Shown piece by piece: positions 7,341-52,482 of a stretch of DNA of 64,000 nucleotides. The DNA lies in the IMG/VR virus record IMGVR_UViG_3300032213_001850, positions 17,380 through 81,379 of that record. One strand, 5' to 3'. Position numbers and translations under genes: made by a program. Each line of letters starts with the position of its first letter. The first letter of the stretch is position 1. Under the pieces are notes generated by a model. The model made no database searches. It was not told the DNA's origin and worked only from the letters and a program-made list of their open reading frames with translations. The stretch is from a virus.

Positions 7341-9353
7341 ATGGCTATAAAGTCTATAAATAAAAATTGGGGAAACACCAAAAACATAAATTACTTAGGT
7401 AAGGATTTTGATGCATTAAAACAAAATCTTATTGATTTTACTAAGACATATTTTCCAAATCAATATTCGGATTTCAATGATGCATCTCCGGGTATGGTTT
7501 TCTTAGAACAAGCTGCAGCAATTGGTGATATGTTATCTTTTTATCAAGATATACAACTTAAAGAATCAATGTTATCAAATGCAACTGAAAGGAAAAATGT
7601 AATTGCATTGGCTCAATCTATGGGATACAAACCAAAAGTAACAACCCCGGCCGTAACAACATTAACTGTTTATCAATTAATTAAAAGTATTGGTTCAGGT
7701 GTAAACAACAAACCAGATGATAGCTTATTTTTAAAAATTAAAAGTGGAATGGAAGTTACATCAAAAAGTAACTCGAATGTAGTTTTTAGAACAATTGATG
7801 CAGTCGATTTTGCAAATTCAAGTAGTAGAGAAATTGACGTTTATAGTAGAGATGGAAGTGGAGAACCGACACAATATTTGATAACTAAACAAGTTCAGGC
7901 AATATCTGCTAGAGAAGTTTCTACAACTATTACGGTTTCAAATTCAACGGATTACCCAATTATAACATTATCGGATTCAAATATTATACAAATAACAAAT
8001 GTTGTTGATGAAGAAAACATTCAATATTATGAAGTCCCATATTTGGCACAAGAAACTATTTTTGTGGAACAACCAAATACACTATTAAACAATAATGAAA
8101 ATGATATATCTGCAGACGTTCCTTATATTTTAGAAGTTCAAAAAGTACCTTATAGATTTTCGACCAAAGTAAATTCAGATAATACTATTGACTTACAATT
8201 TGGAAATGGTAGTTTAAGTGAAAGTGATGAAATCCTTTTGCCAAACCCAAAAAATGTTGGATTGGGATTAGCAAATTCAATACAAAGATTAAATGAAGGT
8301 ATTGACCCATCTAACTTTTTAAAAACAAATACATTGGGTATTGCACCTAACGGAAAACAATTAACTATAAAATATTTAGTTGGTGGTGGGGTATCATCTA
8401 ATGTAAATGCAAACGATTTAACAACCATTTCAAAAATAGAATTTGAAGAAGATTTGGCATCTATAACTGATATAAATTTATATAGTTTATATAAACAATC
8501 AATTGGAGTTGAAAATTCCGATGCTGCAACTGGTGGTAGAGATAGTGAATCAATTGAAGAAATTAGACAAAATGGTTTGGCAATGTTTGGGTCTCAAAAC
8601 AGAGCAGTAACTAGACAGGATTATATTGTGAGAGCATTATCTATGCCAGAAAGATATGGCAGTGTTGCAAAAGTATATGTTAGTCCCGATGGTGAGGTGG
8701 ATAATAATTCTCCATCATCTATTTTGGCATCACCACAAAATATTAATGAATTTGTTAATTTAGTTGATGGATTAAAAAATAGTTCTAGACAAGATATACA
8801 AAAAGAATTAGTTAAATATCTTAGTCAAAAGAAAACATCTATTAGTGAAGTAAATAATCCATTTGCAATTAATATGTATGTATTGGGGTATAATTCTAAT
8901 AAAAATTTAACAATAATAAACAAATCAGTTAAACAAAATCTAAAAACGTATTTAGGAGAATATAGAATGTTAACCGATGGTGTTAATATTATTGATGGGT
9001 TTATTATTAATATTGGTGTAGACTTCGATGTAGTTGTTTATTCAAATTATAATAAGAGAGAAGTTATTACAAACTGCTTAACAGAATTGCAAACTTATTT
9101 TAATATAGATAATTGGACATTCAACAAACCAATAAATCTTTCAGAAATAGAATTGATACTAGCAAATGTGGAAGGGGTAATGAGTGTTCCATCCGTAAAA
9201 ATTTCAAACTTATGTGGTGGGGACGGTAATTATTCACCAAACAGATATAACATAGATGAGGCAACCAAAGGAAAGATTGTCTACCCTTCCTTAGACCCTT
9301 CTATATTTGAAATTAAATATCCAAACAAAGACATAAAAGGGAGGGCATTATAA
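7341..9353 (+). CDS. Baseplate wedge subunit (T4 gp6/baseplate J-like)
   Basis: DFDALKQNL, YSDFN, LAQSMGYKP, FGNG, GGRDSESIEEIR, QNRAVTRQDY motifs. Confidence 0.9.
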   Translation: MAIKSINKNWGNTKNINYLGKDFDALKQNLIDFTKTYFPNQYSDFNDASPGMVFLEQAAAIGDMLSFYQDIQLKESMLSNATERKNVIALAQSMGYKPKVTTPAVTTLTVYQLIKSIGSGVNNKPDDSLFLKIKSGMEVTSKSNSNVVFRTIDAVDFANSSSREIDVYSRDGSGEPTQYLITKQVQAISAREVSTTITVSNSTDYPIITLSDSNIIQITNVVDEENIQYYEVPYLAQETIFVEQPNTLLNNNENDISADVPYILEVQKVPYRFSTKVNSDNTIDLQFGNGSLSESDEILLPNPKNVGLGLANSIQRLNEGIDPSNFLKTNTLGIAPNGKQLTIKYLVGGGVSSNVNANDLTTISKIEFEEDLASITDINLYSLYKQSIGVENSDAATGGRDSESIEEIRQNGLAMFGSQNRAVTRQDYIVRALSMPERYGSVAKVYVSPDGEVDNNSPSSILASPQNINEFVNLVDGLKNSSRQDIQKELVKYLSQKKTSISEVNNPFAINMYVLGYNSNKNLTIINKSVKQNLKTYLGEYRMLTDGVNIIDGFIINIGVDFDVVVYSNYNKREVITNCLTELQTYFNIDNWTFNKPINLSEIELILANVEGVMSVPSVKISNLCGGDGNYSPNRYNIDEATKGKIVYPSLDPSIFEIKYPNKDIKGRAL

Positions 9354-10411
9354 TGCATATATTTTACACATCATCATATGACGCAAGTGTATATCTACAA
9401 CAACCTGAACAAAATGCAGGTAGAGATGAGATATTGGAAGTAGGTAAACTTTACTACGGAGGAGTAAAGGATATTGCTAGAACTTTTATTAAGTTTGATG
9501 TTTCTAATTTGGAAACCGGCAGTAATTGGAAAGCTTATCTTAATCTTAAATCTGCAAATTCTGAAGAAATTCCACTGGAATATACAATATATGCAAATGC
9601 AGTTTCTCAAAGTTGGACAATGGGGACTGGTACAAAATTCGATAATATAACTTCTGATGGTATTAGTTGGAAATATAGAAATGGAATAGATAGTTGGCAA
9701 GATAATGTAATAGCAGGGACTGCGGTGTTTACCAATGGAACAACGGGTTCTGCAAATGCAGAAGGAGGTACTTGGTATTTAAGTGGTTCTGCATCACAAT
9801 CATTTAATAATGAACCAGACGACATCAGAATGGATGTAACAAATATTGTAAGCCTTTGGTTGAGTGGTTCGTTGCCAAATAATGGATTTATAGTACATCA
9901 TAGTTTAAATTCGGAAAATGATTCATTAGACTATGGATTATTAAAGTTCTTTTCAAAAGAAACTAATACAATATACGAACCAAAATTAGAAGTAGTTTGG
10001 AATGATATTTCGTTTGTAACTGGAAGTTTATTACCTGTAACAGGTTCTGCAGAGGATGGATACAAGGTTGTAATTACAAATCTTAAAAACGAATACTCAT
10101 CAAATACAAAGGTAAAAATTAGAGTTAAGGGTAGAGATATGTATCCTTTAAAATCTTTTGGAACAACATTTGCATACGACCAATCAAAATATATAACAAA
10201 TATTTATTATCAATTAGAAGATTATATTACATCTGAAGTTATTTTACCTTTCGGAGATTATACAAAAGTAAGTTGTGATTCAACATCAAATTATTTTATT
10301 ATGAATTTGAATAGTCTTCCAAAAAATAGAACTTATAAATTAAAATTGAAAGTTATAGAGGGTGGTATATCAACAATAATTGATGAAAAATATATTTTTG
10401 ATTTAGTATAA
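9353..10411 (+). CDS. Putative structural protein (DNRLRE-like beta-sandwich)
   Basis: DASVY..., RTFIKFD, MDVTNIV..WL, NNGFIV, FFSKET..YEPKLEV pattern; six [ST]GS motifs. Confidence 0.55.
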   Translation: MHIFYTSSYDASVYLQQPEQNAGRDEILEVGKLYYGGVKDIARTFIKFDVSNLETGSNWKAYLNLKSANSEEIPLEYTIYANAVSQSWTMGTGTKFDNITSDGISWKYRNGIDSWQDNVIAGTAVFTNGTTGSANAEGGTWYLSGSASQSFNNEPDDIRMDVTNIVSLWLSGSLPNNGFIVHHSLNSENDSLDYGLLKFFSKETNTIYEPKLEVVWNDISFVTGSLLPVTGSAEDGYKVVITNLKNEYSSNTKVKIRVKGRDMYPLKSFGTTFAYDQSKYITNIYYQLEDYITSEVILPFGDYTKVSCDSTSNYFIMNLNSLPKNRTYKLKLKVIEGGISTIIDEKYIFDLV

Positions 10412-10412
10412 T

Positions 10413-11549
10413 ATGACAGGATTAGAAGCAATAGCAGAAAAATTACAAGAACAAAAAAAGAAACAATTCGAAGAAATTCTAAGTGTATCCGGTTCGTCTG
10501 CAATATCAAAAAATGATTATAATGTAACCATCGTTGATAATGTAAATCCCGCAACTTCATTAATATTTAAAGGGTTAGATAAACCAAAATACGATGAAAC
10601 CGAATTACTTAAAGCAGTAAATGTATCAGTCACAGAATTGGCACCGAATATACCAATAGCAAATTTGGATTTAATTCCAAAACCAATATATGATGCAGAG
10701 GTAACATCTAGTAATGAACTAAGAATTCAAAATACAAGATTACAATTAACAATAGATTCATTAAATAATACTATTACCGATTTAAGAGCACAAGTTCAAA
10801 CTGAAATAAATAATAGATTAACAATTGAACAAACAAATGATGCTTTAGTAAATCAATTAGATACTTTAAATGGAACAATTACGGATTTTACAGGTCAAAT
10901 TACTACATCATTACAAAAATCGGTAGATGAAAGTATTTTAAGAGCATCGTTACAGTCACAAAATACAGGATTTAAAGCACAGATTAAAGCACTTATTAAA
11001 CAAATTGATTCTTTAAATTCAATCATTGAAGGTTTACAAGCTCAATTGGGTGCATTACAACAACAACAAGCAATTGAACAATCTGCACAAAATGTAGCAT
11101 TTGCATCTGGTGCTGAAGTTATTAATGAGGTTGGTTTAGTTAAATTTACATCTAAAGGAAATGATACGGATGGATGGATAACTGCTGCAGTATCTACACA
11201 TCAATTAGAAAGAAAAAGACAACAAAAATGGCAATATGGTGAAACGATAGAGTTTACAAATAATGATAAGTTTCCAATTACAATCAATATAAACACTACA
11301 TTTGGGACGAAAGGTAAGTGGTTTAGCCTTACAGAAACTAGTTTCACTTTAGGAGCAGGTAGTGCAAAATCACTAAAACCCACATTATATAAGGGTAGGC
11401 CCCCATTAAAATTTGGTGATAGAGAACGTAGTTCCGATTCTATTGGTAATATAGCTATCGAAGTAGTAAGACAAGATGGTTCTAAAAAATCAAAAAGTTT
11501 TAAAACCAAATTAATGGTGAGACATCCTGATTCTTTTCCAGGATTTTAA
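10413..11549 (+). CDS. Coiled-coil putative structural protein
   Basis: Long Q/L/N heptad region (about aa 100-225) followed by a beta-rich C-terminal domain. Confidence 0.55.
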   Translation: MTGLEAIAEKLQEQKKKQFEEILSVSGSSAISKNDYNVTIVDNVNPATSLIFKGLDKPKYDETELLKAVNVSVTELAPNIPIANLDLIPKPIYDAEVTSSNELRIQNTRLQLTIDSLNNTITDLRAQVQTEINNRLTIEQTNDALVNQLDTLNGTITDFTGQITTSLQKSVDESILRASLQSQNTGFKAQIKALIKQIDSLNSIIEGLQAQLGALQQQQAIEQSAQNVAFASGAEVINEVGLVKFTSKGNDTDGWITAAVSTHQLERKRQQKWQYGETIEFTNNDKFPITININTTFGTKGKWFSLTETSFTLGAGSAKSLKPTLYKGRPPLKFGDRERSSDSIGNIAIEVVRQDGSKKSKSFKTKLMVRHPDSFPGF

Positions 11550-11559
11550 AAAATAAAAT

Positions 11560-12453
11560 ATGAGTATAAAAAAATATACAAATTTTGAAAATATAAATAA
11601 TAAAACCGAAAATTCTGGTCAATTTTTGGAAGATAAAGATTTGTTCATAGTTTCAAAAAAAGAAATACAAATAAGTGAGTTTGGTAACACTCCATATGAT
11701 GTTATGGAAATATCGGTTTATGATATTAATAATAATTTGTTACCACACAAATCTGGAAATAATGTAGCATATATAAAATCTACGGATATTAAGAACTACA
11801 TGTACGATATTACAAATAATTTAGGTAAAAAAGAAGTTGCAATTGATATTGAAAAATTATTAAGTGATTTAGGATTTACCAATGGTATATTAAAAATAAA
11901 TCTTAACTTTGTTAGAAATAGAGTTGGTAACGAAAATGAATTACAAAGGGTTTGGATACATGAAATATCACCTTCAAGAGAAGAAATTCGTATTTTGCCA
12001 TTAAAAACAAATAACGAAAGTATAAATAAACTTAATATAAACCAATTTAAGAATTTAAAAGCGTTATCTAAAGATTTTATTTTTTATAAGGAAAGTATTT
12101 TAAATACTATAAATTCTTTTGATAATTCTTTTCTATCAAAGGTGGATGATTATTTAATTTCTCAATATGGAAACGATTATATTAAAATTTTAAAAAAGGA
12201 TTTTGGTATTAATGATTTTGAAGGATACAAAAAAAGAATAGTAGAAAATTTTAAAAATTCCGTTAATTATTTTTTGACAAATAAGGAATATAAAATAGGA
12301 AATCCCAATTTTGGAAAACCATCAGAAGTTAGATTCTATGATTACGAACAATATGCATATGAATATTTACTTAATGAAATTAATAGTATGTTACTGGATT
12401 GTATAAAATACAATTCATCTATTTTTAAAAGAAGAGATATAATTGTTAAATAA
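11560..12453 (+). CDS. Hypothetical baseplate-region protein
   Basis: 297-aa ORF containing IHEISPSREEIRI. Confidence 0.55.
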   Translation: MSIKKYTNFENINNKTENSGQFLEDKDLFIVSKKEIQISEFGNTPYDVMEISVYDINNNLLPHKSGNNVAYIKSTDIKNYMYDITNNLGKKEVAIDIEKLLSDLGFTNGILKINLNFVRNRVGNENELQRVWIHEISPSREEIRILPLKTNNESINKLNINQFKNLKALSKDFIFYKESILNTINSFDNSFLSKVDDYLISQYGNDYIKILKKDFGINDFEGYKKRIVENFKNSVNYFLTNKEYKIGNPNFGKPSEVRFYDYEQYAYEYLLNEINSMLLDCIKYNSSIFKRRDIIVK

Positions 12454-12454
12454 A

Positions 12455-12462
12455 ATATTTAT
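12455..12462 (+). promoter_or_regulatory. Putative late promoter box ATATTTAT
   Basis: Located in a 24-nt intergenic gap before GTG 12478. Confidence 0.6.
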
Positions 12463-12477
12463 ATAAAATAATAAATT

Positions 12478-15400
12478 GTGCAGAATATAAATCCAGACGC
12501 TTTCGAAAATATTCAAATAAATAATGAATCAGGCCGTGCCGAAATTATTGGTGGAGGTGGTGGTGGAGGTTCATCGACATCAAATACAACGGGCACATTT
12601 AATCTATATTTAAATTGTGCTGATATTGCGGAATACTTTGATGGAAACAATACATTGGGAGTTGGTACATCTCAATATATATCATATGCACCTGTAACAA
12701 CATTTGGTTCGTCTAGAACATATACATCAAAAATAGATAATAAAGTTGCAAAAAATTACTTTGTAGTATTTTTGAACAATGAATCCAAAGGATACAACCA
12801 ACAAACCGGTGAACCAACTTATTATGAATCAATAAGAGCATCGGAATATAGATTAAAACCCGGAAGTCAAACCGAATATGAGTTTTATGAATATAAAAAT
12901 TTACCAGGAGTAGATGGTACTATGGAGTTACAATTTTTATTCGAACCGAAAAAAGTTGCAGATGACCCTATTATAACTCCTGCTACTAAAAATTACGATT
13001 TTAAATTAAATTTAAATTCAAATTTTTCAAATGAATTAGAAAATTCTTTTTCATTAAAATATGAAATTGTTAAGTTAAATCAAGTTATATTAACTGGTAA
13101 TTTAACACCAACGGTAGATAGTACAGATTTATTATCTTTGAGTGAAGAAATATTAAATTCTTCAAATGTTGTTTTTAGTGTTGTAGGAGACCTTCCGAAA
13201 AATTTTACTTTTGAAAATATAAAAATAAAAAAAGGAGCGGTTATAAGTTTTTCTCCCGATATTGCATCATCAACTGACCGAATATTAACAATACCTGCAT
13301 CCAATTTAAAAAGTGGAAATGTAGATATTGATGTTACATTTGCAAAAAACATTCCACAACCAGTTGTTAGTACAATTGATACACAATACAATGACCAGGT
13401 TAAAGATAGTGATTCCGATAAAGTAATTGAAATACCTTTTACAACATCGAATGCAAATAGTATAAACGTAACATTTCCAAATGGTAGTGTAAGAAATATA
13501 ACAACTACATCGTTTAGCGTATCATTTAAAAACGATTTAGGTGGAAGTTTTGATTTACAAAAATTAATACTAACTCCTGTTTTTGATAATATTTTAGGAG
13601 CATCTAAAGAAGTATTTGTTAAATTTGTAAGAATTAACAATACTCCCGATATTGTAAGTGTTTCATACCCTGCATCCATTGATATTCCGGCGTTTTCGGA
13701 CTACAATATTGAATATGAGGTAAAATATGAAGCATCGAATACAACTCATGTAAAAGTTGAATTATTACAAAAAGATAATACAAAAATTGTTTATTTAGAT
13801 AAATTGACACCGATTGGTTCTTTTAAGGTAAATATTAAAGCTTTAAAACAAAAATTTGTAAATTGGGAAGGAAATATATCTTTTATATTTACATCAATTA
13901 ATAATGCTGGTGATGTTACATTGAGTAGTAATACCTATTCATATACAACAAATGTTATATATCCAACAATACAAATGGATGAAGATTTAATTAATACATC
14001 TTTATTCAATGCATTTAAGAATCAAATTAAAATTCCAGATTTAGATAAAGATAGTAAATATTTAACACATCTTACTAATTTTGGAGATGATAATCAATTT
14101 TTGGTTTCAAGTTGGGAAAATGATGATTGGACATTATCAAAAAAATCCACAGATGAATTAGGTAATGAATTTGTTAGGCCAGAAGATAAGGTTGAAAGTT
14201 TAATATTAAAATTATACAAACCACTTTCGGCAAATATTACAAATAATTCAACATTATGGATTACCAAATTATTAACGAATCCATTAATTGAAACTATTGT
14301 TTTAAATCAACAAGATGATTTAAAATGTCCACCTTTAAAAGGCCCTAATTTTAATGTTGAGGTGGATTTTGTAACAGGAAAATCAACCGGATACGAATCG
14401 TTGGATGATTTAATATTGAGCGGTTCTACTTCATCTGCACAATTGGTAAATAAATATCTAAGTGGTTCCGTTATTGACACAGAATATTTAAATATAGAAT
14501 ATACAAGTGGTTCGGAATATCTTTGGGAAAACTTTGTTCATTTTAGTTCTGCAACTGAGAGAGTGGATAATTTTGTATATAAAGTTAAATTAATTGAATT
14601 ATATGAACAATTAATAATAAGTGCATCCACAAACTATACAGGAGGTTCGTCTGGGTCGTATACTGGTTCAATTTCATCATTACAAGAAGTTGATAGACAG
14701 AATACAAAGAAAAATCAAATTATCCAATCATTTGATGGGTTTGAAACATTTTTATACAACGAATCATCTTCATCTTTAAATTGGCCATATACGAATGGTA
14801 ATAGAGATTTAAGTGTATCGAATAATGTTTCCAATTGGTATGAAAATATAATAACATTGGCAGAAGATTTTGATATTGAAAATAGAAACTGGATTAATAA
14901 TAATATTCCACAATATATTGTAAATAATGAAGATAATGCAAGTTTGTTATTATTCTTTTCAATGATTGGCCAACACTTTGATAACATATATTTTCATACG
15001 AAGGCAATTGAAAAAAGTAGAGGTTTGGGATACAAACAAACAGGAAATATTTCTGATAAACTATTATTTGATATTTTAAAATCTTTTAATTGGGATGCTA
15101 AAAATTTAGCTGCAGATAATCAACTTTGGAGTTTAGTATTTGGTGTTGATAAAGCTGGAGATGAAGTAAATTCAAACCCTGCAAAACAAAGAAATTTTGA
15201 AGTTTGGAGAAGAATTGTAAACAACTTACCTTACTTATTAAAACATAAAGGTACAAGACAAGGTATTTATGCATTATTGGCTTGTTATGGTATTCCATCA
15301 TCAAACCTTTCAGTTTTAGAATTTGGCGGGCCGGAAGTGACCGAAGAACAAAAAGGTAAATTGGTAATGGATAATATTACTAATGCTCTTAAATTTAATA

Positions 15401-17448: not shown

Positions 17449-17467
17449 CTAAATTTAAAAAATAATT

Positions 17468-33266: not shown

Positions 33267-33275
33267 AAAAACTAA

Positions 33276-34150: not shown

Positions 34151-34165
34151 AAAAAATAAGTTATT

Positions 34166-37192: not shown

Positions 37193-37194
37193 TT

Positions 37195-38595: not shown

Positions 38596-38596
38596 T

Positions 38597-39331: not shown

Positions 39332-39332
39332 T

Positions 39333-40304: not shown

Positions 40305-40305
40305 T

Positions 40306-41582: not shown

Positions 41583-42217
41583 TAAAAAATTTAGAACAAT
41601 ATCCAATAGTAAGAACTGAGACCGAAATTGGTTGGACACCGGAAAAATTAATCAGATTTGAAAATAGAATAGTAGAACATTGGGAAAATGCAAAAATCAC
41701 AGGCCCTATACACTTATCAAATGGTAATGAAGAACAATTGATTGAAATATTCAAAAGAGTTTCTGAAAATGATTGGGTATTCAGTACTTGGCGTTCACAC
41801 TACCATTGGTTGTTAAAAGGAATATCGTCCGATTATGCAGAGGAACTTATTTTGCAAGGTAAATCTATTACTTTATGTGATATAGACCATAAATTCTATG
41901 CTTCTGCAATTGTAGGAGGTACTCTATCAATTGCATTGGGAGTTGCAATGGGAATTAAGCAAAAAGGAACTGACGAAAAAGTATTTGTATTCATTGGTGA
42001 TATGTCATTTGAAAGTGGTATATTTTATGAAGTTCATAAATATGCAAGAAACTTTGACTTACCAATTGTATTTGTTGTAGAAGATAATGATGTTTCAACT
42101 TATACACCAACCGAAGCAACTTGGAATACAAAAAGAGAAATCCCATCGGATGTAATTCATTATACATATAAATCAAAATTCCCACATTATGGAACTGGAA
42201 AGTGGATTGCCTTTTAA
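41579..42217 (+). CDS. Short TPP-dependent E1 alpha-like subunit
   Basis: PIHLS.GNE, STWRSHYH, AIVGG, GDMSFESG...EDN TPP-binding motif; only 212 aa. Confidence 0.85.
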   Translation: MIKNLEQYPIVRTETEIGWTPEKLIRFENRIVEHWENAKITGPIHLSNGNEEQLIEIFKRVSENDWVFSTWRSHYHWLLKGISSDYAEELILQGKSITLCDIDHKFYASAIVGGTLSIALGVAMGIKQKGTDEKVFVFIGDMSFESGIFYEVHKYARNFDLPIVFVVEDNDVSTYTPTEATWNTKREIPSDVIHYTYKSKFPHYGTGKWIAF

Positions 42218-45524: not shown

Positions 45525-46621
45525 AGTATTTAATTTGCAATGGTTGTTCATTTACAAGAGCTGGTAGATTGAACATAGATGTTACCGATGATAATTTTTT
45601 AACCGAAGATAATACTGCATCACATTCATCAACAAATTCAAATGAATTTTATTATTATCCACATCAAATTCAATTATTACATCCTGAAATAAAAGTTATT
45701 AATTTAGGAAATGTTACAAACGATAATCAAGTAATAGCTAGAAATATTATTTATAAAATTGAAAAACTAAAAAAAGAAGGATTTGATACGAAAGATATTT
45801 CCGTAATTGTTCAATGGTCATCCTTTTACAGAAACTCATATTTTGTATCTCCATCAAAAATAGAAGAAAATAAAAAATTAAAATTAACACAACATAGAAA
45901 AAGATGGGATGATGATTATGCACATATAAACGATTTTGCAGAAGAAAAAACTGAAGTTGGTGAAAATGGATATTATTTTTTATCTGGTAATTTTGGAATG
46001 GAACATGTTAAAAATCCTATGAAAGATTTTGCACATTTATATTTGGGACATTTGCATTCACACGAAGAACGATTATTGGTATTTTTGGAAACAATTATGA
46101 TGTTACAATTGTATTTAAAATCTAATGGTATTAAATATAAAATGTTTAATATAGCAAACAATTTTTCAGATACATATGTTTATAATTCTAATAAAGGTTC
46201 TGGATTTCCAATATTCAAACCAGAAAATTCTAAGAATAATGAAATGTATGAAATTATAAAAAATAAACATATACCAAATACTTGGAATGATAAAATGGAA
46301 TATTTTAATAATCCTTATTTAAATTATTATTGGAATATTATCGATTGGAATGATTTTTGGTTTTATGAAGAAAATGGATTACATAAATATGGTGGTGTAA
46401 CTGAGTGGGCTATTAGAAATTTTAATATAAATGACCCAATAAGAGATTTGAATTATAAAAATACTTTATTTTTAGAACAAGAATTAAAAAACGGAAAAGA
46501 ATATACGGAAGATAATTTGATAGATATTTATCAACAAGGTATGTGTCCATTAGGTCATGTATCGGCTAGAATGTATAAAATATTTGTGGATAAAATTGTA
46601 TCAAAATGGGAACTATATTAA
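45521..46621 (+). CDS. SGNH-fold protein (tandem paralog of 44502..45524)
   Basis: NGCSFT, VQWS, LGHVS; shares SHEER, NPY.NY and NDFWFYE..N..HK.GG..EW with the previous gene. Confidence 0.6.
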   Translation: MKYLICNGCSFTRAGRLNIDVTDDNFLTEDNTASHSSTNSNEFYYYPHQIQLLHPEIKVINLGNVTNDNQVIARNIIYKIEKLKKEGFDTKDISVIVQWSSFYRNSYFVSPSKIEENKKLKLTQHRKRWDDDYAHINDFAEEKTEVGENGYYFLSGNFGMEHVKNPMKDFAHLYLGHLHSHEERLLVFLETIMMLQLYLKSNGIKYKMFNIANNFSDTYVYNSNKGSGFPIFKPENSKNNEMYEIIKNKHIPNTWNDKMEYFNNPYLNYYWNIIDWNDFWFYEENGLHKYGGVTEWAIRNFNINDPIRDLNYKNTLFLEQELKNGKEYTEDNLIDIYQQGMCPLGHVSARMYKIFVDKIVSKWELY

Positions 46622-47265
46622 AAGAAGAATTATTTCAAAATGGATTTGTTTCTTTTAATTTAAAAAACTTTGATGAAAATTTATATAATAAATTAAAAGT
46701 ATTTTTTCCAAAAGAAAATTTAAAACCTGAAATGTTCAATCATTTGAAGAATTCTATAATAGGAGTTGAACATGAATATCCAAATTCAGCATTAATGGGA
46801 AAACCATTTACCGAATTAGATAAAATAAAATATGATATTATACAAAAATATGAATATACATGTGACCAACTTTGGTTTTTTGATTGGCCTTATGATGTAA
46901 AAATAGAAAAAACCCCATATACTGAAATAATAAAACCATTGTTTAAATATTTTTACGATGAAGAATGTAAAGGTGCAAATTCACAAGTAACTATGTATAA
47001 TGATGGTTGTTATTTAAAAAATCATACGGACGGAAACGGTGGATATACTGGTGATAGACATTGTGCAATTTTAATATATCTTTCAACTGAATATCAAAAA
47101 GGAAAAGGTGGAGAAATGGTGTTGAGTAAAGATAAAAAGGAAGAAGTTTGGGTAGAACCAATATATGGCAATGTTGCTATATTTGATTTTACAAAACATG
47201 ATATTTGGCATAGAGTAGAAAAAGTAAAAGAATATAACAGATATTGTTTTATTAATTTTTGTTAA
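46606..47265 (+). CDS. 2OG-Fe(II) oxygenase (prolyl-hydroxylase-like family)
   Basis: YLKNHTD, AILIYL, GGEM, WHRV, NRY. Confidence 0.85.
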   Translation: MGTILKEELFQNGFVSFNLKNFDENLYNKLKVFFPKENLKPEMFNHLKNSIIGVEHEYPNSALMGKPFTELDKIKYDIIQKYEYTCDQLWFFDWPYDVKIEKTPYTEIIKPLFKYFYDEECKGANSQVTMYNDGCYLKNHTDGNGGYTGDRHCAILIYLSTEYQKGKGGEMVLSKDKKEEVWVEPIYGNVAIFDFTKHDIWHRVEKVKEYNRYCFINFC

Positions 47266-47294
47266 TTTGAAAAAAAATCATTATATTGTATAGT

Positions 47295-48911
47295 ATGAAA
47301 AAAGAAGCATTTAAAACATTTGTTATATCTGATAAACAAAAACAAATTGTAAATAAGTTAGTAGAAACACCTTTACAAATTAAAGGATTAAGAGCTGCAT
47401 TGGAACATATTGGAAATCCACCAGTACCCTTGCCAGAAAATTTTGTAAAAACAAATGAAAATTTTGATAATTTTAAAAAAGAAATTTTAAAAACACATAC
47501 CGATAATGTATATCAGGCTTGGTATTCCTTAGAAGTAAATAAACTCATAAAACCTGAAATAACAAATGTATTACAGGAAATATTTACACAAAATTATCCA
47601 GAAATAACTGAACCTGTTGAGGTAATGTGGGAATTTACAATGTTTGATGAGGGATGTTATATAAAAGACCATTTGGATGGTAGAGACCCAAAAAGAATTG
47701 CCGGTATATTAATTTACCTTAATAAAGATTATGATGAAAACAATGGTGGATTATTGAAAGTTGTTCATCCTGATACAAATGAAGAAAGTTATGTTATTCC
47801 TGAATTTGGAAATGCAATTTTAGTAGATTATACACAAAACGAAGTCGCACATGAAGTTACCGAAGTTAAAAAAGAAAAAAGGTTGGCAATTTGCGCATTT
47901 ATACACAAAATAAATTTTATGGACAAAAACAAAAAAGTACTGGTTACAGGAGCAAGTGGATTTATAGGTTCACAATTAGTTAAAACATTATTAGATAAAG
48001 GATATACAAACATTAGAACAACTTCTTTTGGCAGAGATTTACCAGTATCTTTAAACAATTATAAATGGTTAGAACACATTAAAGGTGATTTGAGAGATGC
48101 TGAATTTTGTGAAAAGATTAGTAAAGATGTTGATGTTGTATTTCATTTAGCAGCAAATACTTCAAACGCATTAGATACCAAATTTAACCCATTATTACAT
48201 GTTACTCCAAATGTGGAGATGAATGTAAACTTAATGGAACAAAGTTGGAGGAACGGAGTTAAGAAATTTATGTTTATATCATCTAATACAGTTTATCCAG
48301 ATATGAGAGATAAATTTTGTAGAGAAAATTTAGATATACACGGAACACCATTGGTACCGATATATAAGGCAGTTGGTGGTATGAAGAGATATGGTGAAAT
48401 GTTATGTGATTTCTTTTCAAATCAGATTCATAACCCTATGCAATGTGTAATTATTAGACCATCTAATGCATTTGGCCCTAATGATAAATTTGATTTTGAA
48501 AAATGTCATGTTACTCCTGCAAACATCAGAAAAGTGGCAGATGGGTTGAATCCAATACCATTGTGGGGTGACGGAACTGAAATCAGAGATTTATTACATG
48601 TTGAAGATATGGCAGAAGGATTTTTATGGGTTGCTGAAAAATGTGCAAGATATGATATTGTAAATGTTTGTTATGGTGAAGGATTTAGTGTAAACCAAGT
48701 ATTAGAATGGTTAAGAGAAATGGAAGGAAATACAAACCCCATCGAACATACCAATAATAAAGCTCCTATGATTCCTGTAAGATTATTATCTTCAGAAAAA
48801 ATAAATAAAATGGGATGGAAACCAAAGAGAGATTTAAAACAAGCTCTTAAAGAAACTATGGATTGGTATAAAGAAAATAAACATTTATATAATCCAAATT
48901 CAAAACCTTAA
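47295..48911 (+). CDS. 2OG-Fe(II) oxygenase fused in frame to an atypical extended SDR (internal ATG at 47919)
   Basis: YIKDHLD, GILIYLN, AHEV, KR; then MDKNKKVLVTGASGFIG, ISSNTVY, VGGMKRYGE, WGDGTEIRD. Confidence 0.8.
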   Translation: MKKEAFKTFVISDKQKQIVNKLVETPLQIKGLRAALEHIGNPPVPLPENFVKTNENFDNFKKEILKTHTDNVYQAWYSLEVNKLIKPEITNVLQEIFTQNYPEITEPVEVMWEFTMFDEGCYIKDHLDGRDPKRIAGILIYLNKDYDENNGGLLKVVHPDTNEESYVIPEFGNAILVDYTQNEVAHEVTEVKKEKRLAICAFIHKINFMDKNKKVLVTGASGFIGSQLVKTLLDKGYTNIRTTSFGRDLPVSLNNYKWLEHIKGDLRDAEFCEKISKDVDVVFHLAANTSNALDTKFNPLLHVTPNVEMNVNLMEQSWRNGVKKFMFISSNTVYPDMRDKFCRENLDIHGTPLVPIYKAVGGMKRYGEMLCDFFSNQIHNPMQCVIIRPSNAFGPNDKFDFEKCHVTPANIRKVADGLNPIPLWGDGTEIRDLLHVEDMAEGFLWVAEKCARYDIVNVCYGEGFSVNQVLEWLREMEGNTNPIEHTNNKAPMIPVRLLSSEKINKMGWKPKRDLKQALKETMDWYKENKHLYNPNSKP

Positions 48912-49726
48912 TGAAAAATATAGTATTTGGTGGATGTTCTTTAACTTGGGGCCAAAGTTTGTGGTATGAAGGTAATTTTCCCAATGATAAACACCCTAGA
49001 GATGGATTTTTTTATGAACCACAAATTTGTAAAGAATGTTATGAATATATGTTTGAGCATAGATGGCCACGACAAGTATCCAAACATTTCAATAAAGAAG
49101 AAAAAGTAAATGCACTTAATGGTGGAAATAATATGGGTATAAAAGCATTTATACAAAATAGTATAAATGAAAACACCCAATTAGTTGTATTTCAAACTAC
49201 TCAATTTGTAAGATATCCACAATATGTAGATTATCAGGTAGAAAGAATTGAAGAATTTGTATTAGAAACAGAAAAAAAAGGAATACCTGTTAGATTTATT
49301 CATTGGATGTGGCCTGATATAACCGATGAAGAAATGAAAATATTTTTAGGTAATAAAAAATATGATGCAGATGCAAATAGATTAAAATTTCCTCCTGGTG
49401 GAAAAAGTGCCGAAAATAATAAAGCAGAAGTTCCAAAAATCAAATTTCAATTACCACCATATGATGGAAATTTATTAACATCTAAAATTGTAAGAGACAG
49501 AACAATTTATATTTTAGATAAATTCAATTTTTCAGAAATAGTAGAGTGGCAGTATCCAGCTGGAACTGATTTTCAAAAAAAATATACAATTGCAGGAAAA
49601 TTTGGTGTTCCTGAGACTGCATCCGCACCAGATACACATTTTAATATGGAAGGCCACAATTTAATTGCAAATGAAATAATTAAACATTTAGAAAAAGAAA
49701 TCAAAGACGGAACACTTAAATTATAA
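48911..49726 (+). CDS. SGNH-fold protein
   Basis: FGGCSLTWG, GGNN, DTHFNMEGH. Confidence 0.65.
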   Translation: MKNIVFGGCSLTWGQSLWYEGNFPNDKHPRDGFFYEPQICKECYEYMFEHRWPRQVSKHFNKEEKVNALNGGNNMGIKAFIQNSINENTQLVVFQTTQFVRYPQYVDYQVERIEEFVLETEKKGIPVRFIHWMWPDITDEEMKIFLGNKKYDADANRLKFPPGGKSAENNKAEVPKIKFQLPPYDGNLLTSKIVRDRTIYILDKFNFSEIVEWQYPAGTDFQKKYTIAGKFGVPETASAPDTHFNMEGHNLIANEIIKHLEKEIKDGTLKL

Positions 49727-49729
49727 AAT

Positions 49730-50269
49730 ATGAATACACCACAATTTTCTCCATATAAAGATGCATTAACAAATGCAATGACAGAATTGGCAAAATTAGA
49801 TAATACAATTTTTATAGGCCAACAAATAGTATATGCTGGAAATCCTATGAGTACAACATTAGGTGAAGTACCAAAAGAAAAGATGATTGAAGTACCTGTT
49901 ATGGAAGAAACTCAAATGGGTATGACTTTAGGATTGGCCATAACTGGAAAACAAGTTGTAAGTTTTTACCCGCGTTGGGATTTCATAGTATCGGCTGCAA
50001 ATCAATTAATAAATCATGTTGATAAATTTGAAGTAATGACTGGTAAAAAATTAAATATTATAATTCGTTTAGGAAAAGGTTCGGATAAACCATTAGACCC
50101 TGGCCATCAACATAAAGGAAACTATTTGGAAGAATTTAAATCTCTATGTAAGAATATAGAATTTCACGATTTAAAAACACCAACCGATATTGAACTGGCC
50201 TATAAATATGCAACCAAAGAAGGTGGCATTCATGTACTTGTAGAATATCCTGAACTATATTATAGTTAA
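49730..50269 (+). CDS. Short TPP-dependent E1 beta-like subunit (pyrimidine-binding domain only)
   Basis: IFIGQ, EVPVMEETQMGMTLGLA, AANQLINH, GHQH; 179 aa, no C-terminal domain. Confidence 0.85.
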   Translation: MNTPQFSPYKDALTNAMTELAKLDNTIFIGQQIVYAGNPMSTTLGEVPKEKMIEVPVMEETQMGMTLGLAITGKQVVSFYPRWDFIVSAANQLINHVDKFEVMTGKKLNIIIRLGKGSDKPLDPGHQHKGNYLEEFKSLCKNIEFHDLKTPTDIELAYKYATKEGGIHVLVEYPELYYS

Positions 50270-50898
50270 TGAAAGAATTAATTTTAGATAATGGTAAAAT
50301 CATATATGATGAAATATATGATGGTGGTGGCAGTGTATTTGGAATAAATGCATTAAAAGATGAACGTGTTATAAATGTTATAAAAAAAGGTAACATATTA
50401 GAAATGTGTTCTGGACCTGGATTTATGGGATTTTTTCTAAATTTACAAGGATTTGCAAACGATTTAGTTTTATCCGATATTAATGAATCACATGGTTTTT
50501 ATATTAGAGAAACCATTTTACAAAATAATTTAATGAATACTAAATTTATCCAATCGGATGGATTTAAATCATTTGAAATTCATACTATGTTTGATACAAT
50601 TATTATGAATGCACCACATTATTCATCTCCAAGAGAAGGTGGATATGTTAGTAAAGAAGAAGAACTTATTTGTTTAGACCAAGATTTACAATTTCATAAA
50701 CATTTTTTGAAATATGCAAAAAATTATCTAAAAAAAGATGGAGTTATTGTGTTGATTGGAAATATGGGTGGTATTCAACCACAACAAATAATTGATGTAG
50801 CAGGGGATGGATATATATGTAATGTAATATCTTGTGAAAGATATGGGTGGATTAGAGATTCTAGATTTTATGTTTTAGAAATAAAATTAAATGGATAA
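50269..50898 (+). CDS. Class I SAM methyltransferase (MTS/PrmC-like)
   Basis: LEMCSGPG, SDIN, SDGF, FDTIIMNAPHY (NPPY-like), LKKDG. Confidence 0.8.
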   Translation: MKELILDNGKIIYDEIYDGGGSVFGINALKDERVINVIKKGNILEMCSGPGFMGFFLNLQGFANDLVLSDINESHGFYIRETILQNNLMNTKFIQSDGFKSFEIHTMFDTIIMNAPHYSSPREGGYVSKEEELICLDQDLQFHKHFLKYAKNYLKKDGVIVLIGNMGGIQPQQIIDVAGDGYICNVISCERYGWIRDSRFYVLEIKLNG

Positions 50899-52366
50899 TA
50901 AATTAAAAAAATTAATTTTAGGATATGATGTGATATTTCCATATTGTGAAGTTCCAAATGCATTAAATCCAAAATATTTGAGTTTTGCAGAACATTGTGA
51001 TTGGACTTTTGATAAATCAGAACAGTATTTTTTAAATGAACTAAAAATTGCATGGCCTGTATTTAATGGTAGATTTATGGTTCAACTCAATGATGAATCT
51101 GGTAATCCCGGATATTTTGCAGCAGATAAAAAATTAGTATACGATATAATAAAAGATAGAGAAAGAGGAAAACCTGCATATGATTGGTATTATTTAATTG
51201 AACCCTATGGCCATATTGATAATTTTTTAGGATTAAGAAAGGAATTCAAAAATGAATATTTTGATAGATTTATTCCAAAAAAGACTTTAGAAGAAATACG
51301 AGATGGCCATGGTAAATTGATTATCAATTATGCAATCGATGGTGGATTTGAAACACACAATGTGATACAATTAAAGAAATCTTTAGATAATTTAAATTTA
51401 CCTAAAGAAAAAATTATTATCATCCATAATGATATTAATTTAGAAAATATGATGAAACCATTATTTGGTGAAAATATGCCTAAATTAATTCATTATTGTT
51501 TTTCGTTAAATTCAAAATCACAAGAATATTATAAAAAAGAAACTCAAAAAGAATATTATTTTTGGAAAGATGAAGCCAGACAAAAAAAATACGATTTTCA
51601 AAATAAACAAGAATCTCTTAATTTGAATAACAAAACACATAAGTTTTTAAATTTAAATAGGAGATTAAGAAAGCATAGATTTGATATATTAAAATTTTTT
51701 TGGGATGAGAATATGATTGATGATGTTTTAATAAGTTATGATTATAAATTATTGGTTGGGGATACTGTAGAACATTCTATACAAAAATATGGAATAGATG
51801 AATTTAATAGATTTATAAATTATTTAAATGAAAACCCCAAAAAAACACTTGATTATGATGATTTAGAATCGGTATGGGGATATGGGTATGAGACAAAAGA
51901 AATATACAATCAATCTTTAATATCAATTTTATCAGAAACTAATTTCTATGAAGAAACTGGTTATTTAAGTGAAAAAATTTGGAAACCAATTGCACATGGC
52001 CACCCATTTATATTAGTAGGGCCTTATAATTCTTTAAAATCATTGAGAGAAGATTTTGGTTTTAAAACATTTTCTCCTTTTATAGATGAAAGTTATGATG
52101 AAGAAAAAGACCCAAATGTTAGAATGAAAATGATTAAAACCGAAATTAAAAGATTAAATAATTATACATTAGATGAATTAAAACAAATCGTTAAAGAATT
52201 AAAAACTATATTATTACATAATAGAAATTTACTTTTTAAATATGGTTCAAAATCTCACATATGTTTAGATTATTTACATTATTTAAGAATATCCGATAAA
52301 GACGAAGAGGCAAATGAAATATTAAAATTATTTTTACAAAATTTAAACCAAACAAAATTAATATGA
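50891..52366 (+). CDS. Hypothetical phage protein (paralog of 42189..43511)
   Basis: FLNLNRR.RKHR, SILSET, LSEKIWKPI, HPFI, GFKTF..IDESYD. Confidence 0.55.
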   Translation: MDNKLKKLILGYDVIFPYCEVPNALNPKYLSFAEHCDWTFDKSEQYFLNELKIAWPVFNGRFMVQLNDESGNPGYFAADKKLVYDIIKDRERGKPAYDWYYLIEPYGHIDNFLGLRKEFKNEYFDRFIPKKTLEEIRDGHGKLIINYAIDGGFETHNVIQLKKSLDNLNLPKEKIIIIHNDINLENMMKPLFGENMPKLIHYCFSLNSKSQEYYKKETQKEYYFWKDEARQKKYDFQNKQESLNLNNKTHKFLNLNRRLRKHRFDILKFFWDENMIDDVLISYDYKLLVGDTVEHSIQKYGIDEFNRFINYLNENPKKTLDYDDLESVWGYGYETKEIYNQSLISILSETNFYEETGYLSEKIWKPIAHGHPFILVGPYNSLKSLREDFGFKTFSPFIDESYDEEKDPNVRMKMIKTEIKRLNNYTLDELKQIVKELKTILLHNRNLLFKYGSKSHICLDYLHYLRISDKDEEANEILKLFLQNLNQTKLI

Positions 52367-52482
52367 TAAACCCAATCAAAATCATCAAAAAGTGGTATGA
52401 AAACTATAAGATGAAAAAAAGAATAAAGAAAAAGTTAGAAGAACTTAAAAAAAGAGACCCATTTGTTTATAAGAATTTCTAA
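52363..52482 (+). CDS. Small basic peptide (39 aa)
   Basis: MINPIKIIKKWYENYKMKKRIKKKLEELKKRDPFVYKNF*; ATGA overlap with the upstream stop and fills the gap up to the next promoter; below the ORF-track cutoff. Confidence 0.65.
   Translation: MINPIKIIKKWYENYKMKKRIKKKLEELKKRDPFVYKNF

What the first reader, a model, noticed from the sequence alone, without database searches (positions are those of the whole stretch)
9353..52482. Candidate phage-encoded virion O-glycosylation system: [S/T]-G-S motif in structural proteins plus an adjacent 21-kb glycan island
Seen (manual count): [ST]GS occurs 6x in 9353..10411, 1x in 10413..11549, 11x in 12478..17448, 6x in 18130..19383, 6x in 19457..20650, 11x in the tail fibre and 3x in 61072..61383. 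That is 44 sites in about 5,000 aa, versus about 2 in all other proteins of the window (about 15,000 aa). Internal control: the very G/S/T-rich distal ~700 aa of the tail fibre has only one (the terminal ITGSV), so composition alone does not obviously explain it. Directly coupled to the tail fibre gene is an island with four glycosyltransferases, NDP-sugar enzymes and tailoring enzymes. Established: GT7 includes beta4GalT7, which extends Xyl-O-Ser at Ser-Gly sites; some actinobacteriophages glycosylate their virions; the Bacteroidota host sequon D-[ST]-hydrophobic is different. Inference: [ST]GS is a phage-specific sequon receiving a complex methylated/acylated/carbamoylated glycan that shields the virion or tunes adsorption.
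Basis: partly seen in the sequence, partly recalled or inferred. Interest (0 to 1): 0.9.

Follow-up and report, generated by a model that had tools for sequence, protein, structure and literature searches.

The report
Ser/Thr-Gly-Ser tag on phage tail proteins
The outer tail, baseplate and fibre proteins of this uncultured aquatic T4-like phage carry the ordered tripeptide Ser/Thr-Gly-Ser about five times too often; the tag is shared by a very large clade of phages and may mark where the phage attaches its own sugars, but no chemistry shows this, and the neighbouring 21-kb sugar island is not what defines the tag.

Summary
There are 44 [ST]GS sites in the seven named ORFs against about 9 expected (z about 12), and 2 sites in all other ORFs against about 6 expected. 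SGS and TGS are the two most enriched tripeptides. Anagrams (SSG, GSS) and near-equivalents (SGT, NGS, [ST]GN) are not enriched. The signal is in-frame only, and the flanks are not repeated units.

The same excess occurs in Microcystis phage Mel-JY01, Flavobacterium phage immuto, Rhodothermus phage RM378 and about 110 IMG/VR loci. It is absent from T4, three Kyanoviridae isolates and the syntenic baseplate module of huge phage LR756508.

The island is real. It holds only soluble enzymes and at least four glycosyltransferases, one translationally coupled to the fibre gene. It is variable, however: Mel-JY01, immuto and RM378 lack it, and the complete, motif-richest relative G006 lacks the GT7 pair.

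A conserved three-glycosyltransferase cassette outside this contig tracks the motif better. It is in all six complete motif-positive genomes and in none of five negatives, but this amounts to essentially one independent contrast.

Best reading (about 0.45): the motif is an acceptor tag for cytoplasmic phage-encoded O-glycosylation, and the island is a variable elaboration module. The main rival is a purely structural strand-end motif. This scan has reported the same motif on other DNA more than 100 times.

The parts
6899..9353 (+). Inner baseplate wedge genes (gp25-like 6899..7336, gp6/J-like 7341..9353). They anchor the module and are motif-free (0 sites in 815 aa).
   Evidence: PHROG 261/43 and 219/6; counts.
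9353..10411 (+). Peripheral baseplate protein, 352 aa, 6 [ST]GS (exp 0.50).
   Evidence: Homologues have 6 (G001), 4 (Mel-JY01), 3 (immuto) and 0 (LR756508) sites.
10413..11549 (+). 378-aa module protein, 1 site (exp 0.33). Not individually enriched.
12478..17448 (+). Giant baseplate/fibre protein, 1656 aa, 11 sites (exp 2.0).
   Evidence: Homologues have 13 (G001), 11 (Mel-JY01), 5 (immuto) and 2 (LR756508) sites.
18130..19383 (+). 417-aa baseplate/fibre-attachment protein, 6 sites (exp 0.75). Member of a very large family.
   Evidence: 1882 clusters at 50% identity. 526 sites vs 81 expected in 121 diverse members, with four core columns 40-70% occupied. AF2 pLDDT 87, with five of the six sites in loops at or next to strand ends or hairpin turns and the sixth (313-315) entering a helix. 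Motif residues 0.953 conserved vs 0.817 for other S/T/G in 120 close homologues.
19457..20650 (+). 397-aa module protein, 6 sites (exp 0.42). Site turnover is fast: G001 has 2, immuto 5, LR756508 0.
26381..31555 (+). Tail fibre, 1724 aa, 11 sites. Ten lie in residues 1-900 (exp 2.1); the last is the C-terminal ITGSV.
31552..32535 (+). GT-B (GT4-like) glycosyltransferase, translationally coupled to the fibre gene by an ATGA overlap.
   Evidence: AF2 pLDDT 86.7. Foldseek E 3e-9 to 1e-6 against tll1591, BshA, PimA, WaaG and T4 BGT/AGT. A paralogue in G001 follows two giant fibre genes.
32511..34118 (+). Methyltransf_24 methyltransferase (32511..33266) and a weak GT2-like protein (33276..34118).
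   Evidence: Pfam, (the GT2_4 hit is below the curated cut-off).
34371..37192 (+). Tandem GT7 (7N+7C) glycosyltransferases, each with a Laminin_G_3 / ConA-like domain.
   Evidence: Pfam. Present in close relatives G001-G004 and G012; absent from Mel-JY01, immuto and the complete G006.
37195..52366 (+). Sugar-nucleotide and tailoring enzymes: twitch radical SAM, three SDR epimerase/dehydratases, an RmlC-like epimerase, split ThDP E1-like alpha and beta halves, two 2OG-Fe oxygenases, a methyltransferase, and eight unassigned ORFs (38597..39331, 40851..41582, 42189..43511, 44502..45524, 45521..46621, 48911..49726, 50891..52366). None is a membrane protein.
   Evidence: Pfam; NCBIfam NF033640; Kyte-Doolittle scan found no TM helix.
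794..3267 (+). Nol-like O-carbamoyltransferase (794..2491) and an SGNH/GDSL-like protein (2491..3267), inserted in the baseplate module.
   Evidence: PHROG 1601, E 9e-117; Pfam GDSL. Neither has a homologue anywhere in Mel-JY01 or immuto; both are present in G001.
52504..54753 (+). 749-aa protein with a cytidylyltransferase-like domain. It is the conserved right border of the variable slot.
   Evidence: Pfam PF01467. Syntenic homologues in Mel-JY01 (11243..13162), G001 and LR756508.
61072..61383 (+). 103-aa S/T/G-rich head-module protein between the portal and prohead protease genes, 3 sites (exp 0.29).

Best explanation
The motif, more precisely hydrophobic-[S/T]-G-S-hydrophobic/small, is a protein-level signal under purifying selection. 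It is written into the outward-facing tail, baseplate and fibre proteins of a very large clade of aquatic T4-like phages: this phage, Flavobacterium phage immuto, Microcystis phage Mel-JY01, Rhodothermus phage RM378 and thousands of metagenomic relatives.

The most likely mechanism is that it serves as the acceptor tag for a soluble, phage-encoded protein O-glycosyltransferase. That enzyme would act in the cytoplasm on folded or folding virion proteins before assembly.

The priming enzyme is more likely one of a clade-conserved, syntenic three-GT cassette than an enzyme of the adjacent island. The cassette has a GT-B protein of about 460 aa, a GT-B protein of about 420 aa and a GT2 protein of about 207 aa. 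It lies outside this 81-kb contig fragment.

The 21-kb island has a GT-B gene coupled to the fibre gene, a GT7-LamG pair, NDP-sugar enzymes and methyl, carbamoyl and oxidative tailoring enzymes. It is best read as the strain-variable 'host recognition cluster' slot. It would extend or diversify the glycan on the fibres, giving shielding or tuning adsorption.

Shown: the enrichment, its order specificity, its restriction to outer proteins, its conservation with S/T swaps, its clade distribution, the island's content and solubility, and the co-occurrence with the cassette.

Inferred: that Ser is glycosylated, which enzyme does it, and what the glycan does.
For: Specificity: 44 vs 9.2 sites, z 11.8, with SGS and TGS the top tripeptides and SGT, NGS, SSG and GSS flat. 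Such order specificity fits recognition by an enzyme better than it fits a generic turn.

Level and independence: the signal is in-frame only, and the sites have non-homologous flanks.

Placement: sites occur in several unrelated outer proteins. They are absent from the gp6/gp25 wedge, portal and terminase here, and G001's likely major capsid protein has 2 sites vs 0.67 expected, so it is not enriched.

Homologue contrast: homologous proteins with the same folds in LR756508 carry 5 sites where the window has 29. The folds therefore do not need most sites.

Turnover and selection: non-core sites turn over between relatives while density is kept. Within 120 close homologues, motif residues are 0.953 conserved vs 0.817 for other S/T/G, and T<->S swaps at position 1 preserve the motif.

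Clade distribution: all of about 110 IMG/VR loci with this module show a 2.3-6.6x excess. T4, HTVC008M, S-PM2 and P-SSM2 do not.

Cassette: of all G001 ORFs, the 207-aa GT2 is the only one with homologues in Mel-JY01, immuto and RM378 and none in LR756508 or T4. Cassette synteny is shown. It is present in 3 of 3 complete IMG/VR genomes. Among 50,697 phage records it is found only in immuto and Mel-JY01.

Island: at least 4 GTs, no membrane protein, flippase, polymerase or initiating transferase, and an ATGA coupling to the fibre gene. The slot between fibre and cytidylyltransferase-like gene also holds a motif-rich structural protein beside a giant GT1/FkbM enzyme in Mel-JY01.
Against: No chemical evidence of any glycan on any of these virions was found in the literature searched.

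Four core sites in the 417-aa family are positionally conserved, have hydrophobic flanks and sit at strand ends. LR756508 keeps two of them without the cassette, so at least part of the signal is structural.

Co-occurrence with the cassette rests on essentially one phylogenetically independent contrast (LR756508). The other negatives are distant families.

Large phages often carry GTs for DNA or host-surface modification. The GT-B fold of 31552..32535 also matches T4 DNA glucosyltransferases.

Surface exposure could not be computed.
Confidence: 0.45

Rival explanations
1. The motif is purely structural. Hydrophobic-S-G-S-hydrophobic would be a strand-end or hairpin cap, or a tight inter-subunit packing motif, of the beta-rich fibre and baseplate folds used by this clade, with no modification. 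The glycan genes would act on something else.
For: Core columns in the 417-aa family are 40-70% occupied across members at 35-45% identity. They have V/I/L before and I/L/A/V after, and G is nearly invariant. In the AF2 model five of the six sites lie in loops at or next to strand ends or hairpin turns; the sixth (313-315) enters a helix. LR756508 keeps two core sites though it lacks the 421-aa GT-B and the GT2. immuto fibres show period-4 '[ST]GSF' runs typical of fibrous repeats.
Against: Structurally near-equivalent turns (SGT, NGS, DGS, [ST]GN) are not enriched. Homologous folds in LR756508 and fibres of T4 and Kyanoviridae lack the excess. Sites are gained and lost at non-homologous loop positions while density is maintained. 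The motif appears in several unrelated proteins, including the sheath (immuto) and a small head-module protein.
Confidence: 0.3
2. The motif is functional but not a glycosylation site. It could be a site for another modification (phosphorylation, acylation or similar), or a serine 'ladder' that directly binds host polysaccharide or water/ions on the fibre surface.
For: The same specificity, selection and outer-protein restriction as above. No enzyme-substrate link is demonstrated. Tailoring enzymes (methyl-, carbamoyl-, SGNH-type) are present nearby.
Against: No clade-conserved kinase or acyltransferase emerged from the phyletic profile. The only positive-specific enzyme found in all four genomes is a GT2. 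A binding role would be expected mainly on distal receptor-binding tips, yet the distal 824 aa of the fibre are depleted.
Confidence: 0.12
3. One reading: [ST]GS is the sequon of the adjacent island itself. In this reading the GT7-LamG enzymes recognise Ser-Gly as in proteoglycan linker synthesis.
For: The island is coupled to the fibre gene. The GT7 pair carries lectin-like LamG domains. Close relatives G001-G004 and G012 keep both the motif and the pair.
Against: Mel-JY01, immuto and RM378 have the motif but no island genes. The complete G006 has the highest motif ratio (6.6) and no GT7. Flanks are hydrophobic, not acidic. No candidate initiating xylosyltransferase turned up in the Pfam/NCBIfam scans of the island ORFs; GT14 itself was not searched for specifically.
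Confidence: 0.08
4. The excess is a composition or low-complexity artefact, or chance.
For: The proteins are rich in S, T and G.
Against: z is 11.8-15.7 against per-protein shuffles in three phages. The anagram control gives 34 vs 8 and 8. The G/S/T-richest part of the fibre is depleted.
Confidence: 0.01

Closest known systems
Virion glycosylation of mycobacteriophages by phage-encoded glycosyltransferases (Freeman et al. 2023, Cell Host Microbe; seen here only as cited in PMC12619734)
   Same: Phage-encoded soluble GTs are proposed to decorate the phage's own virion proteins in the cytoplasm, giving a shield-like function.
   Different: In mycobacteriophages the glycans sit at the C-termini of the capsid and tail-tube subunits and are experimentally shown. 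Here the candidate sites are internal, sequon-like tripeptides on baseplate, fibre and some sheath proteins. The capsid protein is not enriched, the GT families differ, and nothing is shown chemically.
Host recognition cluster (HRC) / 'LPS-gene' islands of pelagimyophages and cyanomyophages (Zaragoza-Solas et al. 2020, PMC7029224)
   Same: A hypervariable island inside the structural region that combines tail-fibre genes with many glycosyltransferases and deoxysugar enzymes. Its content differs between close relatives.
   Different: That paper interprets the GTs as host O-chain modifiers and reports no motif. The Kyanoviridae isolates tested here (HTVC008M, S-PM2, P-SSM2) lack the strong SGS excess and the GT cassette. 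This island has no membrane or export component.
Bacteroidota general protein O-glycosylation sequon D-[S/T]-[A/I/L/V/M/T] (established knowledge)
   Same: A short three-residue Ser/Thr sequon followed by a hydrophobic or small residue, on surface-exposed proteins.
   Different: That system is periplasmic, lipid-linked and flippase-dependent, and needs Asp at -1. Here position -1 is hydrophobic, Gly is obligatory, and all candidate enzymes are soluble. Cyanobacterial and Rhodothermus phages share the motif.
Bacterial autotransporter heptosyltransferases (TibC/TibA, Aah/AIDA-I; a lead from earlier scan notes, from general knowledge)
   Same: Cytoplasmic GT-B-like enzymes that multiply O-glycosylate Ser residues of folded beta-helical adhesins, without a lipid carrier.
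   Different: No BAHT (TIGR04414-type) match was found among the ten island ORFs scanned. The donor sugar and enzyme families differ.
Animal GT7 beta4GalT7 / proteoglycan linker at Ser-Gly
   Same: GT7 catalytic domains are present (Pfam 7N+7C), and the motif contains Ser-Gly.
   Different: Proteoglycan sites have acidic flanks and need a GT14 xylosyltransferase. Here flanks are hydrophobic and no candidate initiating xylosyltransferase turned up in the domain scans of the island (GT14 was not searched for specifically). The GT7 genes carry LamG domains and are dispensable for the motif.

Membership tests
Phage virion glycosylation system (mycobacteriophage type) | Phage genome encodes its own glycosyltransferases. 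| tested here: met
   31552..32535 has a GT-B fold. The GT7 pair and a GT2-like protein are in the island. The conserved cassette in relatives holds two GT-B proteins and a GT2.
Phage virion glycosylation system (mycobacteriophage type) | Glycan demonstrated on virion proteins (mass spectrometry or glycostain). | not testable with these tools
   No proteomic or chemical data are available. Literature searches found none for immuto, Mel-JY01 or RM378.
Phage virion glycosylation system (mycobacteriophage type) | Target sites at the C-termini of capsid and tail-tube subunits. | tested here: not met
   Sites are internal and lie in baseplate and fibre proteins. The likely major capsid protein of G001 has 2 vs 0.67 expected, and the portal and wedge have none.
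Host recognition cluster of aquatic T4-like myophages | Hypervariable island in the structural region combining tail-fibre genes with GTs and sugar enzymes. | tested here: met
   Fibre plus island lie between SbcCD and the cytidylyltransferase-like gene. The same slot holds different content in Mel-JY01, LR756508 and G001. The definition is in PMC7029224.
Sequon-directed protein O-glycosylation (generic) | A short, order-specific motif statistically over-represented on exposed substrates. | tested here: met
   Exposure itself is inferred only from secondary structure.
Sequon-directed protein O-glycosylation (generic) | The motif co-varies with a specific transferase across genomes. | tested here: inconclusive
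   The GT2 and GT-B cassette is in 6 of 6 complete positives and 0 of 5 negatives. Only LR756508 is a close, independent contrast.
Bacteroidota D-[ST]-[AILVMT] O-glycosylation | Asp at -1 of the modified Ser/Thr. | tested here: not met
   Position -1 is L/T/V/S/I (window) or I/F/V (immuto); D is not among the common residues.
GT7 / proteoglycan-linker pathway | GT7 enzyme needed wherever Ser-Gly sites are used. | tested here: not met
   G006 (100% complete, motif ratio 6.6), Mel-JY01 and immuto lack GT7N/7C above the cut-off.
BAHT (TibC/Aah) protein heptosyltransferases | Homology to the TibC/Aah family. | tested here: not met
   An NCBIfam scan of ten island ORFs gave no such hit. The cassette proteins hit PF00534, PF20706 and PF00535 only.

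The most novel reading that the evidence does not exclude
A sequon-based virion O-glycosylation code is used by one of the most abundant clades of aquatic T4-like phages. A conserved soluble GT triad would prime Ser in hydrophobic-[S/T]-G-S-hydrophobic on every outward-facing tail protein. Hypervariable fibre-linked islands such as this 21-kb one would then build strain-specific glycans on that primer, shaping host range, aggregation, or escape from defence and grazing.
Probability: 0.4. Interest if true: 0.9.

Novelty: new variant of a known kind. Interest (0 to 1): 0.7.

Why it matters
If the tag is a sugar-attachment code, it would be the first sequon described for phage virion glycosylation. 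It would also give a function to the large 'LPS-like' GT islands next to tail fibres in aquatic myophages, which are currently assumed to modify the host surface (PMC7029224).

The protein family that carries the tag is very large: 1,882 clusters at 50% identity for one baseplate protein alone. The trait would therefore affect how a major fraction of freshwater and marine phages present their adsorption apparatus.

It is directly testable, because three cultured phages (immuto, Mel-JY01, RM378) carry both the motif and the GT cassette. If the motif instead proves purely structural, it is still a sharply defined and unusual signature of this clade's fibre folds.

Tried and rejected
- Composition or low-complexity artefact: rejected by shuffles and the anagram control.
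- DNA-level word: rejected. GGTTC is in frame in 49 of 50 cases and the reverse complement is flat.
- Duplicated repeat units: rejected, since flanks are unrelated.
- Universal tail-fibre property: rejected by T4, HTVC008M, S-PM2 and P-SSM2.
- The GT7-LamG pair as the sequon enzyme: rejected by distribution.
- Search for motif-negative lineages inside the family, to obtain more independent contrasts. Two family members have no site. P0147 gave no IMG/VR locus, and all P0232 relatives were positive. Queries from the LR756508 homologue gave only distant loci, all positive.
- Fold identification of the 417-aa protein: no PDB match by Foldseek, and no solved homologue by sequence for the 417-aa, 1656-aa or 1724-aa proteins.
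- Solvent exposure of the sites: not computable, because model coordinates are not returned.
- The 'moraphage' paper (PMC12619734) was checked as a possible description of this lineage. It describes a different, non-T4 group.


Full report
**Setting**

The window is 64 kb of an 81,379-bp IMG/VR viral contig that CheckV rates 43% complete. GC is about 29% and all genes lie on the + strand. It is a T4-like myovirus. It has gp25-like and gp6/J-like baseplate wedge genes at 6899..9353. It also has a primase, a fused SbcD-SbcC, the terminase large subunit (56143..57753), the portal (58406..60151) and the prohead protease (62271..62861).

The closest isolates are Microcystis phage Mel-JY01, Flavobacterium phage vB_FspM_immuto and Rhodothermus phage RM378. 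The closest large metagenomic record is the 484-kb phage LR756508. A complete close relative is held as G001 (IMGVR_UViG_3300021962_000021, 238,219 bp, 78% identity in the 417-aa protein).

**Observation**

The seven ORFs carry 6, 1, 11, 6, 6, 11 and 3 sites, giving 44 [ST]GS in 5,027 aa. Only 2 sites occur in all other ORFs, where composition predicts about 5.9.

- Per-protein shuffles give 9.2 +/- 2.9 sites (z 11.8).
- SGS and TGS are the two most enriched of all tripeptides.
- [ST]GT, NGS, DGS, AGS and [ST]G[N/D/A] sit at expectation. [ST]AS is mildly raised.
- Anagrams of the same residues are flat: SGS 34, SSG 8, GSS 8.
- The fibre's own control holds: 10 sites vs 2.1 expected in residues 1-900, and 1 vs 2.5 in the G/S/T-richer residues 901-1724.
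- The signal is translational. GGTTC is in frame 0 in 49 of 50 occurrences in these genes, and the reverse complement is not enriched. Nine, four and six different codons are used at the three positions.
- The sites are not copies of a repeat. Flank identity is 1.16 of 16, against 1.11 for random controls.
- The context is hydrophobic at -1 and hydrophobic or small at +3.

**Where the sites sit**

All motif-bearing ORFs except the 103-aa head-module protein lie downstream of the wedge genes or are fibres. The wedge, portal, terminase and replication proteins have none.

In G001 the same module is enriched. So are a 299-aa protein after the likely MCP (10 sites), two giant fibres (24 and 20 sites), and to a lesser degree sheath-region proteins. 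In immuto the tail sheath (7 vs 1.3) and a 373-aa protein (12 vs 1.3) are also enriched.

An AlphaFold2 model of the 417-aa protein has pLDDT 87. Five of its six sites lie in loops at or next to strand ends or hairpin turns, and the sixth (313-315) enters a helix. No solved fold matches it. Solvent exposure could not be computed, because coordinates are not returned.

**Distribution**

The excess is not specific to this phage.

- Mel-JY01 has 45 vs 6.1 sites (z 15.7) and immuto 61 vs 13.2 (z 13.1) in the syntenic module. The tripeptide specificity is the same.
- RM378 is positive: SGS 28 vs SSG 10 and GSS 10.
- Every one of about 110 IMG/VR loci carrying the 417-aa family shows a 2.3-6.6-fold excess.
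- The 417-aa family has 1,882 clusters at 50% identity. Its 121 diverse members carry 526 sites vs 81 expected.
- T4 is negative (19 vs 28 genome-wide, no enriched ORF).
- The Kyanoviridae isolates HTVC008M, S-PM2 and P-SSM2 are flat in the anagram control.

LR756508 is the informative case. Its baseplate module is syntenic and as similar to the window's as immuto's is, at about 38% identity in gp6. Yet its four homologues carry 5 sites where the window's carry 29. Three of those 5 lie in the 417-aa homologue, at or next to conserved core positions.

**Constraint and turnover**

Four columns of the 417-aa family are occupied by the motif in 40-70% of members (G-SGS-[ALV], V-SGS-[IL], L-SGS-x, [VTI]-TGS-x). 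Replacements there are SGT, SGA, TSS and SSS.

Other sites move. Between the window, G001, Mel-JY01 and immuto, sites appear and vanish in the same loops, while the total stays high.

In 120 close homologues (82-97% identity), motif residues are 95.3% conserved against 81.7% for other S/T/G. At one site, 69 homologues have TGS and 51 have SGS, so the change preserves the motif.

This pattern suggests two classes of site. A few are probably structural core sites. A larger set is selected for the motif as such.

**The island**

- ORF 31552..32535 overlaps the fibre stop codon. It has no Pfam hit but folds as a GT-B/GT4-like transferase, with pLDDT 86.7 and Foldseek E 3e-9 to tll1591, BshA, PimA and WaaG. 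It also resembles T4 BGT/AGT.
- A Methyltransf_24 enzyme and a weak GT2-like protein follow.
- Next are two GT7 (7N+7C) enzymes with Laminin_G_3 domains.
- Then come a twitch radical SAM enzyme and three SDR epimerase/dehydratases.
- These are joined by an RmlC-like epimerase and split ThDP E1-like halves.
- The rest are two 2OG-Fe oxygenases and a second methyltransferase.
- A Nol-like carbamoyltransferase and an SGNH-like gene sit inside the baseplate module.
- No island protein has a credible transmembrane helix. There is no flippase, polymerase or initiating phosphoglycosyl transferase. This points to a soluble acceptor.

So 'four glycosyltransferases plus NDP-sugar and tailoring enzymes' is correct.

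**Does the island explain the motif?**

It does not explain it on its own.

- No island gene except a generic SDR has a homologue in Mel-JY01 or immuto.
- GT7N/7C are absent from Mel-JY01, immuto and RM378.
- GT7 is also absent from G006, a 274-kb, 100%-complete relative whose module has the highest ratio (6.6).
- The slot is conserved, though. In Mel-JY01 the order SbcCD, fibre, [variable], cytidylyltransferase-like gene, terminase is kept. There the variable part holds a 508-aa structural protein with 13 sites beside a 1,226-aa FkbM-methyltransferase/GT1 enzyme.
- This matches the published 'host recognition cluster' of aquatic T4-like myophages, which was interpreted as host O-chain modification (PMC7029224).

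**A better-tracking candidate**

I ran a phyletic profile of all G001 ORFs against three positives (Mel-JY01, immuto, RM378) and two negatives (LR756508, T4). Exactly one ORF is present in all three positives and in neither negative: a 207-aa GT2.

- It lies in a syntenic cassette with two GT-B (Glycos_transf_1) proteins of about 460 and about 420 aa.
- The GT2 and the 421-aa GT-B are in 3 of 3 complete IMG/VR genomes (G001, G006, G007), and in Mel-JY01 and immuto. RM378 has them in diverged form.
- They are absent from LR756508, T4, HTVC008M, S-PM2 and P-SSM2.
- Among 50,697 phage records they occur only in immuto and Mel-JY01.
- LR756508 keeps only the 460-aa homologue.
- The cassette maps at 19-24 kb in G001, well outside the region that corresponds to this contig.

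This agrees with leads in earlier notes of this scan. I stress that it amounts to one close independent contrast. Clade-specific genes co-occur with clade-specific traits by descent.

**Verdict**

A phage-encoded virion O-glycosylation tag is the best single explanation (about 0.45). The order specificity, the outer-protein restriction, the selection for the motif as such, the loss of sites in homologous folds of LR756508, and the soluble GT machinery all fit it.

The tag is older than the adjacent island and independent of it. The GT7 / Ser-Gly analogy does not hold, and part of the signal is probably structural. A purely structural motif (about 0.30) and a different function or modification (about 0.12) remain open.

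No chemistry exists. Three cultured phages make the question directly testable. The same motif has been reported by this scan on other DNA more than 100 times. I found no published description of it in the library searches.

Noticed in passing
window 31552..32535: An ORF with no Pfam, PHROG or NCBIfam hit that overlaps the fibre stop codon (ATGA). It folds as a GT-B/GT4-like glycosyltransferase. A paralogue in G001 (214869..215867) directly follows two giant motif-rich fibre genes, and LR756508 also has a homologue.
   Followed up: yes
window 794..3267: A Nol-like O-carbamoyltransferase and an SGNH/GDSL-like gene lie between two conserved baseplate-module genes (92..790 and 3267..3674). Neither has a homologue anywhere in Mel-JY01 or immuto; both are present in G001.
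   Followed up: partly
window 41579..42217 and 49730..50269: ThDP-dependent E1-alpha-like and transketolase-pyrimidine (E1-beta-like) halves are encoded 7.5 kb apart. Together with RmlC-like and SDR genes, this suggests synthesis of a branched-chain or two-carbon-extended NDP-sugar.
   Followed up: no
window 37195..38595: A twitch-domain radical SAM protein (NCBIfam NF033640, E 3e-106) lies inside the glycan island. Its substrate is unknown.
   Followed up: no
window, the 44 motif sites: Codon asymmetry within the motif. The first Ser is mostly AGT (15 of 28 Ser; AGT is about 27% of Ser codons in these genes). The third Ser is TCN in 38 of 44 sites. Gly is GGT in 36 of 44 (60% overall). This is unexplained.
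   Followed up: partly
G001 (L135-L136) 199237..200136 and 206958..214864: In the complete relative, a 299-aa protein just after the likely major capsid gene has 10 sites (exp 0.6). Two fibres of about 1,300 aa have 24 and 20 sites. These genes lie beyond the end of this contig.
   Followed up: partly
L045 (Mel-JY01) 3065..8430: A 508-aa 'structural protein' with 13 [ST]GS sites lies directly upstream of a 1,226-aa FkbM-methyltransferase/GT1 fusion. Both occupy the slot that holds the 21-kb island in this phage.
   Followed up: partly
L022 (RM378) locus 11800..16341: In RM378 the homologue of the 417-aa protein lies about 2 kb upstream of a gene annotated as similar to UDP-galactopyranose mutase.
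   Followed up: no
window 22960..26103: SbcD-like nuclease and SbcC-like ATPase are fused in one 1,047-aa ORF. In LR756508 the homologous region is split into two ORFs.
   Followed up: no
L002 (immuto) 32835..38454: immuto tail-spike N-termini carry period-4 runs such as SGSFTGSFSGS followed by GDGSGL, plus repeated SHAEG motifs. This is a distinct repeat architecture, and it contributes many of the phage's sites.
   Followed up: no
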